DNA of 64,000 nt from a virus. Its lineage: Duplodnaviria; Caudoviricetes. Of this stretch, positions 40,502 to 53,079 are shown piece after piece (positions within the stretch are counted from its first letter, which is position 1; each line of letters starts with the position of its first letter). The position numbers and the translations under genes are program-made. The notes under the pieces were generated by a model. It made no database searches. It was not told the origin of the DNA and saw nothing but the letters and a program-made list of their open reading frames with translations. The stretch is taken from the IMG/VR virus record IMGVR_UViG_3300028833_000065, one strand, 5' to 3'.

Positions 40502-40681
40502 TTATTTTTCCTTCTTTCTATTGTTCTTGGGAACAATGCTATTATAGCATATTATAGGAAAATTACAAGAAGAAGATTTAGATGTTTTACATCTAAATAT
40601 TCCTGTTGACTTCTCAATTAAATGGAGTATAATATAGCCATGAACTGAAGGAAAACAGTTGAAACCAGAAAGGGAAAGAAA

Positions 40682-41164
40682 ATGACGAAGTATCTGATTG
40701 TGCGGTGTGAAGAACTGATGGACCAGTATGAGTGCGATGCTAACCGTGAACCGATGTTTCTGGTGGATGATTGGACGAAATGGTATCAGGAAAATCATCC
40801 GAATTATCAGTTTGAAGTGTATAAGTTTGAAGATGATAAAGAATGTACTTTGGAAAAGACTTATGAAGAGTCTATGGATTATGGAATGGCATTATACTTC
40901 TGGAATATGGATGATAGCCATGAAGAAGTAGCGCCGACCGTAATTGCGCATTATAAGGGTTATAATCGCGATAAGAAAGTGCCTAATAAAGTGTGGAACG
41001 TTTTTCGACAGGGTGCTTACTGGGCAGACGGTGATGAATTTACTGAAAAGGACTTTAAGAATGACTTGAGAAGTTGCGGATATGTTGCTTGGGATGATAA
41101 GGAGCATAAGAAATTTTGGGTATATGGGTATTATGCGGACGGGCGCTATTGCTTGGGATATTAA
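40682..41164 (+). CDS. Hypothetical protein (inverted cassette)
   Basis: TTGACT-17-TATAAT at 40606, leader motif, terminator AAGGAGCAAATGCTCCTT. Confidence 0.7.
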   Translation: MTKYLIVRCEELMDQYECDANREPMFLVDDWTKWYQENHPNYQFEVYKFEDDKECTLEKTYEESMDYGMALYFWNMDDSHEEVAPTVIAHYKGYNRDKKVPNKVWNVFRQGAYWADGDEFTEKDFKNDLRSCGYVAWDDKEHKKFWVYGYYADGRYCLGY

Positions 41165-41229
41165 GGAGCAAATGCTCCTTTTTCTTTTTTTAATTTTAGA
41201 TGTTTTACATCTAAAATAAAAAGGATGGT

Positions 41230-41490
41230 CTAAAACCATCCATAGAGAAGAGAAAGAAAATAAATATTAAGAACTACGCTTGACAGATGCATCAGAACAT
41301 CATTGATGTGCCGATGCTGTGAGAGGTCTTTACATACGCCGAAAAGCGCGATTGCGAGTCCGAACCATGAGACTTGAAGGCCGAAGAGCATAATCAGGAC
41401 TACATTCAAGATGGTAATTCCGCACCGAACATCATTCCATTCAAAGCGGTAAGGGGTTTCAATTCCGAACCAATTCTTAATCGTTTCCAT
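41230..41490 (-). CDS. Small membrane protein ending in TAG
   Basis: Hydrophobic segments; the TAG lies inside the terminator hairpin. Confidence 0.6.
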   Translation of the reverse strand: METIKNWFGIETPYRFEWNDVRCGITILNVVLIMLFGLQVSWFGLAIALFGVCKDLSQHRHINDVLMHLSSVVLNIYFLSLLYGWF

Positions 41491-41510
41491 TTCTATTCTC
41501 CATTTTATTC

Positions 41511-41768
41511 TTATTCTTCAAACATACTAATCTGTTCTCCACCGAAGCGCCTGAGTACGACTTCTCTTACCTGTCTCTGGGCATCTTCGTTCCAACTATA
41601 ATAGTTTTCATCATCAAGACCCTTGACATATTCATCAATGGCATCATCCACGACTTGCGTGATAGTTGCTTTTCTTTCTTTCATCAGACGCTCACAACTA
41701 GCATAAATGTCGTCCATATCAATATTCGCGCAATGCCAACTTTCCCATTCAACTTCAATCCAATTCAT
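41511..41768 (-). CDS. Hypothetical acidic protein
   Basis: AAGGAG RBS; long structured leader. Confidence 0.6.
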   Translation of the reverse strand: MNWIEVEWESWHCANIDMDDIYASCERLMKERKATITQVVDDAIDEYVKGLDDENYYSWNEDAQRQVREVVLRRFGGEQISMFEE

Positions 41769-42091
41769 TTTTTCGTTCTCCTTTCATAAGATGGCAACTT
41801 TTTCCGTATCAGGGAAAGTTGCCGAAACCTGCCCATCTCCTTCCTTGGGATTACGGGAATTCAATGGGAGCCCGTCAGTTCTCACCTTCCTAAGTCCATC
41901 CCAGTTCCTTGGAACAATTACATTATACTACGATTTTGGAAAATGTCAAGTATTTCTTTTTTATCTTTTTCTGTGAGTGTATCATACAATTCTCTTGCCG
42001 ATGGAGTGAGATAATCATAATGGACTAGGCCCAAAGCGCATAGACAACACAGTTCTTTTTCTTCGGAATTAATTGGAAATAATAGCATTTT

Positions 42092-42337
42092 TCAAACTCC
42101 ACACTTTTCAATTATTTCTTGCGGTTCAAGGTCGGAATGTGCGAGCCAACTAAGCGCACACATGATTGTATCCACATCAGTGATTTTTCCTTCTTGAATA
42201 CGATAGACAAGCATACGGTTGACTTCTTCAATTCTTTCGGCTTCTTTTTTAAGAACATTAGCTTTGTCCGTCATTCCCTGAAGAAGCTGAAATGCCAAGG
42301 TGGAGCAGTCGCAAATATCCATAGATTCAAACTTCAT
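42092..42337 (-). CDS. Hypothetical protein
   Basis: Promoter next to palindrome 5; AAGGAG RBS. Confidence 0.6.
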   Translation of the reverse strand: MKFESMDICDCSTLAFQLLQGMTDKANVLKKEAERIEEVNRMLVYRIQEGKITDVDTIMCALSWLAHSDLEPQEIIEKCGV

Positions 42338-42437
42338 TTCACTCAACTCCTTTCGTTGATGTGCTTATTATAGCATAGAGGAAAGGAACTGTCAAGAAAA
42401 TATATTTAGATGTTATACATCTAATTATCCGATAAAG

Positions 42438-42668
42438 GAAAAGCCACCCGTCGGTGGCTAAAGGCGCCGAGTGGAACGTTGCGCACCGCCCACTCTATTG
42501 AACTTTTCCTCACTTGTTTATCAGCCAGAAGGGAAAAAGTTTGAAAAGCTGAATCTGTCTGGAAAGGGGCTTTAAGGATAAACCCCTTAGAACCTCTCAT
42601 GGTTCTTGGCTATACGGAGCGCTTACGCATCAATTAAGGCGAGTCAGTTTTCGCCACCAAGAAGGGAA
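42438..42668 (-). ncRNA. Candidate structured non-coding RNA
   Basis: No credible ORF; several complementary segments; ends in a terminator. Confidence 0.4.
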
Positions 42669-51363: not shown

Positions 51364-51479
51364 ACTCAATTGCTCCTTTCCTTATTGACAAGATAATTAT
51401 AACATAATTTAAGTAAAAGTCAAATATTTATTTAGATGTATAACATCTAAAAAATATAAAGTTGGCGCATATGCCAACT

Positions 51480-51791
51480 TTAACAGTCATCAGTATAGCA
51501 ACCTGCATACGGGTCAAATCCCATTTCAATATCGTATTCTGGTTCTTCGTATCCAAAGTGTCCCTTGGCCCATTCAATTTCTTCTTCTGAGAAATCTTCT
51601 TTCTCATCGCTGGGCGCATCAGCTTGTTCCCATTCTTCCCAGCTTGTCCATACACTAAGCCAGTCATCACAGTCCTCGCAAGGGTCATCAACATGGCATA
51701 CGCCATTCTTATCGCAGTAGGGGCAATCCCAACCGTTCACGGGGCAATAGGTGAGTTCACCGTTATAAGTTCCGGCCTTACTATCTCTCAT
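51480..51791 (-). CDS. Cys-rich acidic protein
   Basis: CPVNGWDCPYC...CH..DPCEDCDD; GFDPYAGCYTDDC. Confidence 0.65.
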   Translation of the reverse strand: MRDSKAGTYNGELTYCPVNGWDCPYCDKNGVCHVDDPCEDCDDWLSVWTSWEEWEQADAPSDEKEDFSEEEIEWAKGHFGYEEPEYDIEMGFDPYAGCYTDDC

Positions 51792-51913
51792 TTTAGTCCC
51801 TCCTTTGTTCCTCTTGGAACTGTGATAATGATATCATACTTTGATAGAAAAAGCAAGAGAGTATTTTAGATGTATTACATCTAAAATGGAAGAAGCTGGG
51901 AAACCCAGCTTGC

Positions 51914-52168
51914 TTACTGAACCATGATTTCCATCAGCGTACCGTCGTAGTTTTCCAGCCCATAAACGCCCAGATGCAGCTCGCGTGCTTCCGCCAGCAG
52001 CTCGTTAAACTGGTTGTTCAGCTCCTGCGCACGATGCTTGCGCGCACGAATCTTACGCAGACCAGTAATAATCTGGTCAAGCTCTTCAATGGAGAGGTCA
52101 TCGGTATCAAAAGACACAACAGCGGACACGGGGTTGACGATTTCACTCAGTTTCTTTTCGGGTTTCAT
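51914..52168 (-). CDS. Hypothetical protein
   Basis: Single-gene cassette; paralog of 46538..46768. Confidence 0.65.
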   Translation of the reverse strand: MKPEKKLSEIVNPVSAVVSFDTDDLSIEELDQIITGLRKIRARKHRAQELNNQFNELLAEARELHLGVYGLENYDGTLMEIMVQ

Positions 52169-52287
52169 AATCTTACTTCCTTTCGTGAGGTGATGGTTAT
52201 ATTATACTCAGATTTTAATTTTTGTCAAACATTTATTTTAGATGTAATACATCTAAAAATTATACACGGGATATTATCCCGTGGAAT

Positions 52288-52596
52288 TTACTTCCAAATT
52301 GTTTTTCCGTTTTCAGTAAACAACGACTGATTGCGGTCAACACGTTTGCGCAGATAGGGCGGAATTTTCTTTGTTCCATTGTATACAGCTACCAGCTCAC
52401 GGAAGGTAGTTACATACATTGTAATCACTTTCAGCTTGTCCTCTGTTTTTACCAGCGTAATACCAGTGTCGGTGATACACAGATAAACGCCGTTCTGATA
52501 CTTTTCGCGCACAACCTGCCCCAAGCCAATATCATTGATAATATGCTGTACCCGGTTCGCTCTTTGTACTTCGCAGTGATAAGTCATTGTTGTCAT
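52288..52596 (-). CDS. Hypothetical protein
   Basis: Single-gene cassette; AGGAGG RBS. Confidence 0.65.
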   Translation of the reverse strand: MTTMTYHCEVQRANRVQHIINDIGLGQVVREKYQNGVYLCITDTGITLVKTEDKLKVITMYVTTFRELVAVYNGTKKIPPYLRKRVDRNQSLFTENGKTIWK

Positions 52597-52713
52597 GGTT
52601 CATACCTCCTTTTGATGGTGTAAGTATATCATAAAATGGGAAAATTGTAAAGAGTAATTTTTAGATGTTTTACATCTAAAAACTATAATGAAATAAGCGC
52701 CAAGGCGCTTATT

Positions 52714-52935
52714 TTACATGATTTCATCAAAAGCCAAGTCAAGCCAATCATCATTTACCATACTCGCAAATTCAGATACCAGCTTGCGCAGAATAGCTCC
52801 AGCCTGCTCATCACTCATCTTGGTCAAATCCAGCCCAACATGCTTTTTCAGCCGCCGCATCAGGAGCTTGAGCATGTCGCAGTAAGTGTATTCTTTGTCA
52901 TCTTCTTCAAAGTAAACAGTCGCATTGAGTTCCAT
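52714..52935 (-). CDS. Hypothetical protein
   Basis: Single-gene cassette with the leader motif. Confidence 0.65.
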   Translation of the reverse strand: MELNATVYFEEDDKEYTYCDMLKLLMRRLKKHVGLDLTKMSDEQAGAILRKLVSEFASMVNDDWLDLAFDEIM

Positions 52936-53079
52936 ATTTTAGTCCTTTCTGGTTTGGGAGGTTGTCCGTCCTCTTTACAATTAGTATTATATTCATTTTA
53001 GGAAAAAAGTCAAGTAATATTTTTTAGATGTATAACATCTAAAATTATAATGAAATAAAGGGATTTCTCCCTTTATTTA

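What the first reader, a model, noticed from the sequence alone, without database searches (positions are those of the whole stretch)
40642..52973. Covarying 5'-leader RNA motif: stem-AAGGA-loop followed by AAACCAGAAAGG
Seen in 10 leaders (genes starting at 40682, 42998, 43592, 44877, 45192, 45804, 49041, 49950, 50440, 52935): a 4-5 bp stem whose sequence changes while staying paired (AACTG/CAGTT, AGGG/CCCT, GAGG/CCTC, AGTG/CACT, GTTG/CAAC, GTGG/CCAC, GGAG/CTCC). It closes an A(A/C)GG(A/C)-containing loop and is followed by an invariant AAACCAGAAAGG overlapping the SD. Established: CsrA/RsmA binds ANGGA in hairpin loops plus a second GGA in the SD. Inference: a translational regulon controlled by host CsrA or a phage RNA-binding protein.
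Basis: partly seen in the sequence, partly recalled or inferred. Interest (0 to 1): 0.8.

Follow-up and report, generated by a model that had tools for sequence, protein, structure and literature searches.

The report
Conserved hairpin leader on phage early genes
Ten early genes of a large rumen/gut phage carry the same 36-base RNA leader, a small covarying hairpin with an AAGG loop followed by AAACCAGAAAGG at the ribosome-binding site; it recurs about 250 times in related phages, matches no catalogued RNA family, and is probably a shared translational control site whose binding partner is unknown and is unlikely to be host CsrA.

Summary
All ten copies sit at the stated genes. A covariance model finds exactly these ten in the window (22.7-58 bits; next hit 10 bits) and 249 matches in about 100 related loci from uncultured phage contigs.

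- **Covariation:** the three inner stem pairs are Watson-Crick in 142 of 142 distinct copies. Each has 20-75 double-sided changes and no one-sided change.
- **Fixed anatomy:** 4-5 bp stem, loop starting AAGG, 2-3 nt linker, AAACCAGAAAGG, then 7-11 nt to the ATG.
- **Anchoring:** the motif is tied to the SD, not to the transcript start. Some copies lie between genes without a recognisable promoter, and others sit behind a second hairpin.
- **Distribution:** each complete genome (184 and 190 kb) has 7-10 copies in one ~10 kb early cluster.
- **Not catalogued:** no Rfam family matches even at E<=10, and no cultured phage carries it.

The CsrA reading is weak. The A of the SD 'GGA' is present in only 61% of copies, and the loop is 8 nt without ACA. 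CsrA does not explain the near-invariant AAACCAG. No csrA was found in the three phage records searched or in the 7 MAGs that hold motif contigs, and only 19% of genomes in the candidate host order have it.

Best reading (~45%): an operator for an unidentified, probably phage-encoded, RNA-binding regulator. Main rival (~28%): a factor-independent ribosome-binding and insulating leader.

The scan also noted this motif once more, on the same DNA read in an overlapping window.

The parts
40641..40676 (+). Leader motif copy 1: stem AACTG/CAGTT, loop AAGGAAAA, box AAACCAGAAAGG at 40662-40673. It precedes the ATG at 40682 (160-aa gene, 40682-41164). This is the only copy on the + strand, at the edge of the cluster.
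   Evidence: CM R1 49.0 bits; sequence; promoter TTGACT-N16-TATAAT with -35 at 40606
43006..43043 (-). Copy 2: stem AGGG/CCCT, loop AAGGAAAA, box at 43009-43020. It precedes the ATG at 42998 (108-aa winged-helix protein, 42672-42998).
   Evidence: CM 39.8 bits; promoter -35 at 43082; AlphaFold2 model pLDDT 93 with winged-helix matches
43598..43634 (-). Copy 3: stem GAGG/CCTC, loop AAGGAAAA, box at 43601-43612. It precedes the ATG at 43592 (107-aa paralogue of the winged-helix family, 43269-43592).
   Evidence: CM 46.8 bits; promoter -35 at 43672
44887..44922 (-). Copy 4: stem AAGTG/CACTT, loop AAGGCAA, box at 44890-44901. It precedes the ATG at 44877 (328 aa, DEDD-exonuclease-like, phrog_20187; 43891-44877).
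   Evidence: CM 31.1 bits; phrog hit; promoter -35 at 44958
45198..45233 (-). Copy 5: stem AGTG/CACT, loop AAGGAAAA, box at 45201-45212. It precedes the ATG at 45192 (58 aa, 45016-45192). It has no recognisable promoter; the hairpin begins a few bases after a TAA that I read as the stop of the upstream ORF.
   Evidence: CM 54.0 bits; sequence; not in the promoter scan
45810..45845 (-). Copy 6: stem AGTTG/CAACT, loop AAGGAAAA, box at 45813-45824. It precedes the ATG at 45804 (124 aa with a Lys/Glu-rich tail, 45430-45804).
   Evidence: CM 58.4 bits; promoter -35 at 45880
49046..49083 (-). Copy 7: stem GTGG/CCAC, loop AAGGATA, 5-nt linker, box at 49049-49060. It precedes the ATG at 49041 (254-aa DEDD exonuclease-like, 48277-49041). 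It lies behind a second hairpin (GTTCC-TCG-GAAC) that is closer to the promoter.
   Evidence: CM 22.7 bits; sequence; phrog_20187 E 6e-33
49955..49990 (-). Copy 8: stem GGAG/CTCC, loop AAGGATA, box at 49958-49969. It precedes the ATG at 49950 (64-aa membrane protein, phrog_1374; 49756-49950).
   Evidence: CM 33.6 bits
50446..50480 (-). Copy 9: stem GAGG/CCTC, loop AAGGACA, box at 50449-50460. It precedes the ATG at 50440 (119 aa with a Lys/Glu-rich tail, 50081-50440).
   Evidence: CM 42.2 bits; promoter -35 at 50517
52941..52976 (-). Copy 10: stem GAGG/CCTC, loop ACGGACAA, box at 52944-52955. It precedes the ATG at 52935 (73 aa, 52714-52935).
   Evidence: CM 36.8 bits; promoter -35 at 53013

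Best explanation
The element is a phage-specific cis-regulatory leader RNA built into the translation-initiation region of a subset of early mRNAs (10 of about 28 early gene cassettes here).

Anatomy, as shown: a marginally stable 4-5 bp hairpin whose stem may be almost any Watson-Crick sequence but whose loop must begin AAGG. After 2-3 nt comes single-stranded AAACCAG, fused to the SD (AGAAAGG), and the AUG follows 7-11 nt later.

Inferred mechanism: the hairpin and the adjacent AAACCAG box form a two-part, shape- and sequence-specific binding site for one trans-acting factor. That factor is most likely a phage-encoded RNA-binding protein, either a translational repressor or a site-specific nuclease. 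Because its footprint abuts or overlaps the SD, it would compete with the 30S subunit and so switch these early messages together. This is the logic of T4 RegA, RegB and the gp43 operator.

Shown: structure, conservation, register with the SD and AUG, restriction to one early cluster, and absence from Rfam. Inferred: that a protein binds, that it is phage-encoded, and the sign of the regulation.
For: (1) Covariation. In 142 distinct copies the three inner pairs are 100% Watson-Crick, with 20, 75 and 32 double-sided changes and no one-sided change; the fourth pair is 92% paired. None of 500 shuffles reaches the observed score, and sliding the partners collapses pairing from 85% to 45-58%.

(2) Sequence constraints that a plain hairpin does not need. 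The loop begins AAGG in 172 of 179 copies, and 107 loops are AAGGAAAA. The 12-mer is exact in 164 of 200 copies; CC is changed in only 2 of 200, both apparent 1-nt register shifts that keep CC, and G7 is never changed.

(3) Rigid geometry. The stem-to-box linker is 2-3 nt in 94% of copies whatever the loop length, and GG-to-start spacing is 7-11 nt in 178 of 203.

(4) Anchored to the SD, not to the 5' end. 32 of 203 copies have no recognisable promoter, and those read (window 45201; L177, L230, L131) lie between genes. About 7 copies lie 29-38 nt after the -10 element, in the copies read behind a second hairpin.

(5) The hairpin is weak (-2.0 to -4.9 kcal/mol) and the SD is mostly unpaired (P about 0.7). 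It is therefore neither a sequestering structure nor a strong protective cap.

(6) Purifying selection between orthologues. Window versus G001 shows 0 of 120 changes in the box, against 14% in the promoter region and 10% downstream. Apart from one pair thrown out of register by a 1-nt indel, the changes near the motif fall in the linker or flanks.

(7) Not gene-linked by descent alone. The motif precedes at least 60 BLAST-unrelated protein clusters, and the same protein families occur with and without it.

(8) Regulon-like distribution. There are 7 and 10 copies confined to one ~9-10 kb stretch in two complete 184 and 190 kb genomes.

(9) Precedent. T4 gp43 binds a hairpin plus sequence overlapping the RBS, RegA represses about 30 early mRNAs, and RegB cuts early SDs (PMC3014915).
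Against: No binding partner has been identified. Pfam searches of the phage records for CsrA, RegA, Hfq and bS21 were all negative. No gene family in the sampled neighbourhoods is present in every motif-bearing locus without itself carrying the motif. Both conserved purine elements (loop AAGGA and SD AGAAAGG) are complementary to the 16S 3' tail, so direct ribosome recognition could explain part of the conservation. No G-U pairs are seen, so the covariation alone does not distinguish RNA from single-stranded DNA.
Confidence: 0.45

Rival explanations
1. Factor-independent 'standard' translation leader. The hairpin insulates the RBS from variable upstream sequence and/or slows 5' decay. The A-rich single-stranded AAACCAG-AAAGG presents a moderate SD, and the SD-like AAGGA loop acts as a standby or second 30S contact. 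Conservation would then reflect direct recognition by the host ribosome, not by a regulator.
For: AGAAAGG is a perfect 7-bp complement of the 16S tail CCUUUCU found in the candidate host order. The base after GG is a purine in 85% of copies, which allows an A-U or G-U extension. The loop AAGGA is also complementary to UCCUU. In 171 of 203 copies the hairpin starts 9-15 nt after the -10 element, which by inference puts it near the 5' end. The SD is predicted to be unpaired. From my own knowledge, not checked here: 5'-proximal hairpins and SD-like 'STAB-SD' or polypurine elements stabilise mRNAs in Bacillus, including an early RNA of phage SP82.
Against: AAACC cannot pair with 16S rRNA, because the rRNA ends at ...CCUUUCU and the precursor continues AAGGAG, yet it is the most invariant part. 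GGAG, which would strengthen the SD, is almost absent after the box (3 of 203) and after the loop GG (1 of 179), although by eye most motif-less cassettes that I read in this window use GAAAGGAG. The hairpin is weak, at -2 to -4.9 kcal/mol. Promoterless copies between genes and copies behind another hairpin keep the same geometry. Only 10 of about 28 otherwise similar cassettes use it.
Confidence: 0.28
2. Host CsrA. A CsrA dimer binds the GGA in the hairpin loop and bridges to the GGA at the SD, as on glgC or hag. It would repress these ten mRNAs, or the abundant leaders would titrate CsrA away from its host targets.
For: AAGGA sits in the loop of a short hairpin in about 90% of copies, and the stem is at most 5 bp, as in SELEX ligands (PMC7652899). 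The second GG(A) lies about 22 nt downstream and overlaps the SD, the same layout as on glgC.
Against: The SD-site A is present in only 61% of copies. The loop is 7-9 nt, there is no ACA, and extra loop nucleotides lower affinity. The invariant AAACCAG is unexplained. csrA was not found in G001-G003 or in 7 MAGs holding motif contigs, and it occurs in 23 of 121 genomes of that order.
Confidence: 0.08
3. Small H-type pseudoknot or ligand-sensing leader, with an architecture like preQ1-I. The loop GG would pair with the CC of AAACC, and the A-rich linker would lie in the stem's minor groove, modulating access to the SD.
For: The two most invariant dinucleotides are the loop GG and the box CC. 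The linker plus AAA (4-6 nt) and the AA before GG have lengths compatible with pseudoknot loops. The overall size (36 nt, with the SD at the 3' end) resembles preQ1-I; this comparison is from my own knowledge.
Against: Only 2 bp are possible, and neither side ever varies, so covariation gives no support. RNAalifold and MFE folds do not need the pairing. There is no Rfam hit, including no riboswitch. Ten copies on unrelated early genes is unusual for a metabolite sensor.
Confidence: 0.05
4. No function of its own: a relic of cassette duplication or gene conversion, or a DNA-level operator downstream of the promoters.
For: The cassettes are clearly modular, with 29 palindromes, consensus promoters and terminators. 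Three paralogous families account for 120 of the 192 distinct downstream proteins.
Against: Gene conversion would copy the stems too, yet the ten copies in this window have eight different stems, with compensatory changes only. Conservation is position-specific across phages that are otherwise diverged. The orientation and spacing are tied to the ATG. Copies without a recognisable promoter exist. A DNA-binding protein would not tolerate freely varying half-sites.
Confidence: 0.04

Closest known systems
T4 gene 43 (DNA polymerase) translational operator
   Same: [quoted passage not shown] Protein binding there represses initiation (PMC3014915).
   Different: The T4 operator is a single autoregulatory site with a -UAAC- loop. 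Here there are 7-10 copies per genome on unrelated genes, an AAGG loop, a different box, and no known protein.
T4 RegA and RegB control of early mRNAs
   Same: One phage factor acts on the translation-initiation regions of many early messages: about 30 for RegA, while RegB cuts inside SD-type GGAG with a long A-rich 3' context (PMC3014915).
   Different: RegA sites are unstructured, AU-rich and poorly conserved. RegB needs GGAG, which is specifically avoided here (3 of 203). No RegA homologue was found; RegB was not searched for.
CsrA/RsmA binding sites (glgC, hag, CsrB repeats)
   Same: GGA in the loop of a hairpin with a stem of at most 5 bp, just upstream of a second GG(A) at the SD.
   Different: The loop is 8 nt rather than 6, there is no ACA, the second A is not conserved, and there is an extra invariant AAACCAG. 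No csrA was found in the phage records or in the candidate host MAGs.
PeSL promoter/stem-loop cassettes of T4-type phages
   Same: Repeated regulatory modules flank small early genes in a hyperplastic region, and cassette genes appear shuffled (PMC2839356 and PMC4122927, seen as titles and abstracts only).
   Different: PeSLs are described as composite promoter-terminator motifs, which I take to act at the DNA and transcription level. The hairpin here lies downstream of the promoter, is fused to the SD, has a conserved loop with a covarying stem, and also occurs without a promoter.
Lambda nut site (boxA + boxB)
   Same: A two-part site on early transcripts: a short hairpin with a purine-rich loop plus a conserved linear box (own knowledge).
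   Different: boxB has a GNRA-like pentaloop, boxA lies upstream of it, and there is no fixed register with a start codon. The present motif is locked to the SD and AUG.

Membership tests
CsrA/RsmA binding site | GGA in the single-stranded loop of a short hairpin | tested here: met
   About 90% of loops read AAGGA, the GG is invariant, and the stem is 4-5 bp
CsrA/RsmA binding site | Second conserved GGA overlapping the SD | tested here: not met
   The GG is invariant, but the next base is A in only 61% of copies (G 24%, C 9%, T 7%)
CsrA/RsmA binding site | Match to the SELEX consensus RUACARGGAUGU (ACA conserved, hexaloop preferred) | tested here: not met
   The loop is 7-9 nt (AAGGAAAA) and no ACA precedes the GGA (consensus from PMC7652899)
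CsrA/RsmA binding site | A CsrA protein available in the phage or the host | tested here: inconclusive
   PF02599 was absent from G001-G003 and from 7 MAGs holding motif contigs, and present in 23 of 121 genomes of the candidate order. The host is known only from binning.
Any Rfam 15 family (including the PyrR site, preQ1 and r-protein leaders) | Covariance-model match | tested here: not met
   No hit at gathering score over the window, and no hit overlapping any copy even at E<=10
Phage translational operator (T4 gp43 type) | Hairpin contiguous with single-stranded sequence overlapping the RBS | tested here: met
   Linker of 2-3 nt, box fused to the SD, AUG 7-11 nt downstream
Phage translational operator (T4 gp43 type) | A cognate phage protein binds and represses initiation | not testable with these tools
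   No candidate was identified. EMSA, pull-down or reporter assays are needed.
5' mRNA stabiliser (STAB-SD or 5'-terminal stem-loop) | Function tied to proximity to the 5' end, with a strong hairpin or long SD complementarity | tested here: not met
   32 of 203 copies have no recognisable promoter and about 7 lie 29-38 nt downstream of the -10 element. Hairpin energy is only -2 to -4.9 kcal/mol. Loop complementarity to 16S is 5 nt.
PeSL mobile promoter/terminator cassette | The stem-loop is the terminator part of a promoter-terminator composite between genes | tested here: not met
   Separate GC-rich terminators and a palindrome lie upstream of the promoters. The motif hairpin lies downstream of the promoter and has no U-tract.
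preQ1-I-like H-type pseudoknot | Loop-to-tail helix P2 supported by complementarity or covariation | tested here: inconclusive
   Only GG:CC (2 bp) is possible, and both sides are invariant, so no covariation can be read

The most novel reading that the evidence does not exclude
The hairpin plus AAACCAG box is the operator of an undescribed phage-encoded RNA-binding regulator. That would be a new protein-RNA recognition pair comparable to MS2 coat/operator or lambda N/boxB. It would switch about ten standard-code early mRNAs together in a whole group of large TAG-recoded gut and rumen phages, for example shutting them off as the infected cell moves to the recoded late programme.
Probability: 0.35. 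Interest if true: 0.75.

Novelty: new variant of a known kind. Interest (0 to 1): 0.6.

Why it matters
This is a clean, strongly covarying and very compact (36-nt) RNA motif that Rfam lacks. It has hundreds of natural variants that already define which positions are free (the stem) and which are fixed (the AAGG loop start and AAACCAG).

It marks a co-regulated subset of early genes in large, uncultured, TAG-recoded phages of ruminant and human guts, whose early programme is otherwise unknown. If a dedicated binding protein exists, the pair would be a new post-transcriptional switch. It could also serve as an orthogonal RNA-protein tool for Gram-positive and anaerobic hosts.

If no protein exists, the motif is a natural 'standard RBS part' that shows what Clostridia ribosomes prefer. 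Either way it gives a concrete handle for annotating early regions in metagenomic phage contigs.

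Tried and rejected
- **Rfam:** no hit at gathering score or at E<=10.
- **Cultured phages:** nucleotide searches with 13.5 kb and 6 kb found nothing. A 44-nt leader query hit only one uncultured human-faecal fragment, MT839743.
- **Literature:** the 12-mer appears only in irrelevant papers.
- **PyrR binding loop:** I recalled a resemblance to UCCAGAGAGG. I rejected it because the order of elements differs, the PyrR upper stem cannot form, and the CM gives no hit.
- **Extended pairing of AAACCAG with 16S rRNA:** rejected. 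The rRNA in that order ends ...CCUCCUUUCU and the precursor continues AAGGAG.
- **Host mimicry:** the CM found no full motif outside a phage contig in 150 genomes of the candidate host order. The weak hits are just AAACCAGAAAGG-like RBSs without a hairpin, at about chance level.
- **Phage-encoded candidates:** CsrA, bS21, RegA and Hfq were all absent from G001-G003. The RegA model also rang in no control genome, so that negative is weak.
- **Co-occurrence hunt for a regulator:** clustering 2229 neighbouring ORFs found no family that is present in every motif-bearing locus and lacks the motif itself.
- **Antisense sRNA:** the only opposite-strand copy is itself a leader.
- **Compensation between loop length and linker length:** none found.
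- **Genome-collection scan:** mostly chance single matches. The real copies lie only in Clostridia MAG contigs that look like phage.

Full report
**Observation.**
The 12-mer AAACCAGAAAGG occurs exactly ten times in the window, once on the + strand and nine times on the - strand. Reading 70 nt upstream and 40 nt downstream of each copy shows the same layout. The loop is 7-8 nt and begins A(A/C)GG. A 2-5 nt linker follows, then the 12-mer, and the ATG comes 7-10 nt later at the ten stated coordinates.

I built a covariance model (R1) from 48 in-register copies, 45 of them from other phages and three from this window. It finds exactly these ten in the window, at 22.7-58.4 bits; the next hit scores 10 bits. 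The motif is therefore all-or-none, with no decayed copies.

**What the DNA is.**
The window's own assembly is not held. The nearest record is a 64 kb IMG/VR contig that CheckV rates 36% complete, and it carries the same ten copies. Read with TAG=Gln, the window yields long ORFs, for example 3310 aa with 50 in-frame TAG codons. This agrees with earlier notes of this scan that the phage recodes TAG in late genes but not in the early cassettes.

The motif region lies inside an array of 29 palindromes, TAGATGT-N3-ACATCTA, spanning 39462-55794. The repeating unit is gene, GC-rich terminator, palindrome, TTGACA-N16/17-(TG)nTATAAT promoter, leader. These sigma-A-type promoters and GAAAGGAG-type SDs point to a Firmicute host. 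The motif-bearing contigs found in genome collections all sit in Clostridia MAGs, most of which I take to be Oscillospirales from their names. That is binning evidence only.

**Breadth.**
R1 finds 249 matches in about 100 of these loci. Two complete genomes with direct terminal repeats carry 7 copies (184 kb genome) and 10 copies (190 kb genome). In each, the copies are confined to one 9-10 kb stretch and the last copy lies on the opposite strand, as in the window.

No cultured phage has the motif; the only database hit is an uncultured human-faecal fragment. No Rfam 15 family matches at gathering score or overlaps a copy at E<=10. The 12-mer is not discussed in the searchable literature.

**Covariation and constraints.**
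- **Stem pairs.** On the 150-sequence CM alignment (142 distinct rows), the three inner pairs are paired in every sequence. They show 20, 75 and 32 double-sided changes and no one-sided change. The fourth pair is 92% paired, and the outer A-U pair forms in 30%.
- **Controls.** None of 500 column shuffles reaches the observed score, and sliding the 3' partners drops pairing from 85% to 45-58%. The hand-registered alignment, which was not fitted to a model, and RNAalifold give the same helix.
- **Loop.** It starts AAGG in 172 of 179 copies, and 107 loops are AAGGAAAA; the positions after that vary in length and sequence.
- **Box.** It is exact in 164 of 200 copies. The tolerated changes are A2>C, A6>G, A9/A10>G and G12>A. 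CC is changed in only 2 of 200, both apparent 1-nt register shifts that keep CC, and G7 is never changed.
- **Geometry.** The linker is 2-3 nt in 94% of copies, independent of loop length. GG-to-start spacing is 7-11 nt in 178 of 203, and 192 of 203 starts are ATG.
- **Orthologues.** Between the window and G001 the box has 0 of 120 substitutions, against 14% in the promoter region and 10% downstream. Apart from one pair thrown out of register by a 1-nt indel, the changes near the motif fall in the linker or flanks.

**What the motif is anchored to.**
In 171 of 203 copies a consensus promoter lies upstream, and the stem begins 9-15 nt after the -10 hexamer. If transcription starts about 7 nt after the -10 element (my inference), the hairpin sits within a few nucleotides of the 5' end. 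However, 32 copies have no recognisable promoter, and those I read lie between genes (window 45201; the L177, L230 and L131 lineages). About seven more lie 29-38 nt after the -10 element, in the copies read behind a second, different hairpin. In all of these the distance to the SD and ATG is unchanged. The element therefore belongs to the translation-initiation region, not to the transcript start.

The hairpin is weak (-2.0 to -4.9 kcal/mol), and the SD is predicted to be mostly unpaired. It is neither an SD-sequestering structure nor a robust 5' cap.

**Relation to the ribosome.**
In the candidate host order the 16S rRNA ends ...CCUCCUUUCU, and the precursor continues AAGGAG. AGAAAGG is therefore a perfect 7-bp SD. 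The next base is a purine in 85% of copies, which allows an A-U or G-U extension. AAACC cannot pair with the rRNA, yet it is the most invariant part.

GGAG is almost never formed, either after the box (3 of 203) or after the loop GG (1 of 179). By eye, most motif-less cassettes that I read in this window use GAAAGGAG. Ribosome complementarity thus explains the 3' half of the box and perhaps AAGGA in the loop. It does not explain AAACCAG, the avoidance of GGAG, or the fixed linker.

**The CsrA hypothesis.**
- **For:** a short hairpin displays GGA, and a second GG(A) overlaps the SD about 22 nt downstream. This is the glgC layout (PMC7652899).
- **Against, from the RNA:** the second A is present in only 61% of copies. 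The loops are 7-9 nt and lack the conserved ACA, and extra loop nucleotides lower affinity. The invariant AAACCAG is irrelevant to CsrA.
- **Against, from gene content:** PF02599 is absent from two complete phage genomes, from the nearest record, and from 7 MAGs that hold motif contigs. It is present in 23 of 121 genomes of that order.

I put CsrA at about 8%.

**The genes served.**
The 192 distinct downstream proteins fall into at least 60 BLAST clusters. Three families dominate.
- Small proteins of about 110 aa with a C-terminal winged helix. The AlphaFold2 model has pLDDT 93, and the best matches are Zalpha, Fur/PerR and PadR-type domains at weak E-values.
- DEDD-exonuclease-like proteins, assigned to phrog_20187; the DEDD reading comes from my inspection of motifs such as MDTETTG and H-x4-D.
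- Proteins of about 120 aa with Lys/Glu-rich tails.

Members of these same families also occur without the exact motif (a lower bound, because some start codons are misassigned). The leader is therefore modular with respect to the coding sequence. No CsrA, RegA, Hfq or bS21 homologue was found in the phage records. No motif-less family present in every neighbourhood emerged as an obvious regulator.

**Interpretation.**
The combination of features is what a two-part protein operator looks like: a free but strictly paired short stem, a fixed loop start, a fixed short linker, a nearly invariant single-stranded heptamer, and fusion to the SD. T4 offers precedents (PMC3014915). These are the gp43 operator (a hairpin plus RBS-overlapping sequence), RegA (about 30 early mRNAs) and RegB (a long recognition site at early SDs).

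I therefore favour, at about 45%, an unidentified and probably phage-encoded RNA-binding regulator that controls these ten messages together. Whether it activates or represses is unknown. The main rival, at about 28%, is a factor-independent standardised RBS, insulator and stabiliser. Minor rivals are CsrA (8%), a 2-bp GG:CC pseudoknot or sensor (5%), and a non-functional or DNA-level element (4%). The last is largely excluded, because the ten copies have eight different stems with compensatory changes only.

**Novelty and verdict.**
This is a real, widespread, strongly covarying cis-regulatory RNA motif that is not in Rfam. It works like known phage translational operators but has its own sequence, a multi-copy regulon-type distribution, and an unknown partner. 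Interest is 0.6.

Noticed in passing
window 39462-55794, both strands: There are 29 copies of the palindrome TAGATGT-N3-ACATCTA, one between each terminator and the next promoter (about 10 nt before the -35 element). They delimit about 28 monocistronic early cassettes. The sequence-conserved half-sites suggest a DNA operator for a dimeric regulator, and the abundant small winged-helix proteins encoded in the cassettes are obvious candidates.
   Followed up: partly
window, - strand promoters with -35 at 38898, 41949, 43833, 49694, 53392, 53798, 54096, 55767; also 49086-49100: A second recurrent leader element: a hairpin or inverted repeat, (T)GTTCC-N3-6-GGAAC(A), that starts 3-6 nt after the -10 hexamer. 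Unlike the AAGG hairpin, its arms are conserved in sequence. It could therefore be a DNA operator overlapping the transcription start, or a 5'-terminal RNA cap. It co-occurs with the AAGG leader at gene 49041 and in several related loci (L018, L041, L049, L053, L070, L097, L114).
   Followed up: partly
window 16887-26819 (-), 7996-10377 (-), 57604-63139 (+): Reading TAG as Gln joins fragments into long ORFs: 3310 aa with 50 TAG, 793 aa with 18 TAG, and packaging or late genes with 7-9 TAG each. The only ORF of at least 300 aa in the early cassette region (43891-44877) has no in-frame TAG, and nine of the ten motif genes end in TAA and one in TGA. This is consistent with a TAG-recoded large phage whose early genes stay in the standard code.
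   Followed up: partly
window 43891-44877 (-) and 48277-49041 (-): Two paralogous DEDD (DnaQ-like) 3'-5' exonuclease-type genes (phrog_20187; motifs MDTETTG and H-x4-D). Both have the leader. The family is found in 43 related loci, mostly without the exact motif.
   Followed up: partly
window 42672-42998 (-), 43269-43592 (-): Paralogous proteins of about 108 aa with an N-terminal helical bundle and a C-terminal winged helix (AlphaFold2 pLDDT 93; weak matches to Zalpha, Fur/PerR and PadR domains). This is the commonest family behind the leader (at least 71 members in 51 loci), with several copies per genome.
   Followed up: partly
window 29674-30462 (-): A Thg1-type tRNA-His guanylyltransferase gene (phrog_4717, E 2e-81). 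Its best database relatives are in Bacillus and Staphylococcus phages at about 46% identity. No tRNA gene lies in the window.
   Followed up: no
motif copies in all loci: GGAG is almost never formed at either purine element of the motif: 3 of 203 after the box and 1 of 179 in the loop. By eye, most motif-less cassette genes that I read in the same window use GAAAGGAG. This suggests selection for a limited SD strength or against a GGAG-specific activity.
   Followed up: partly
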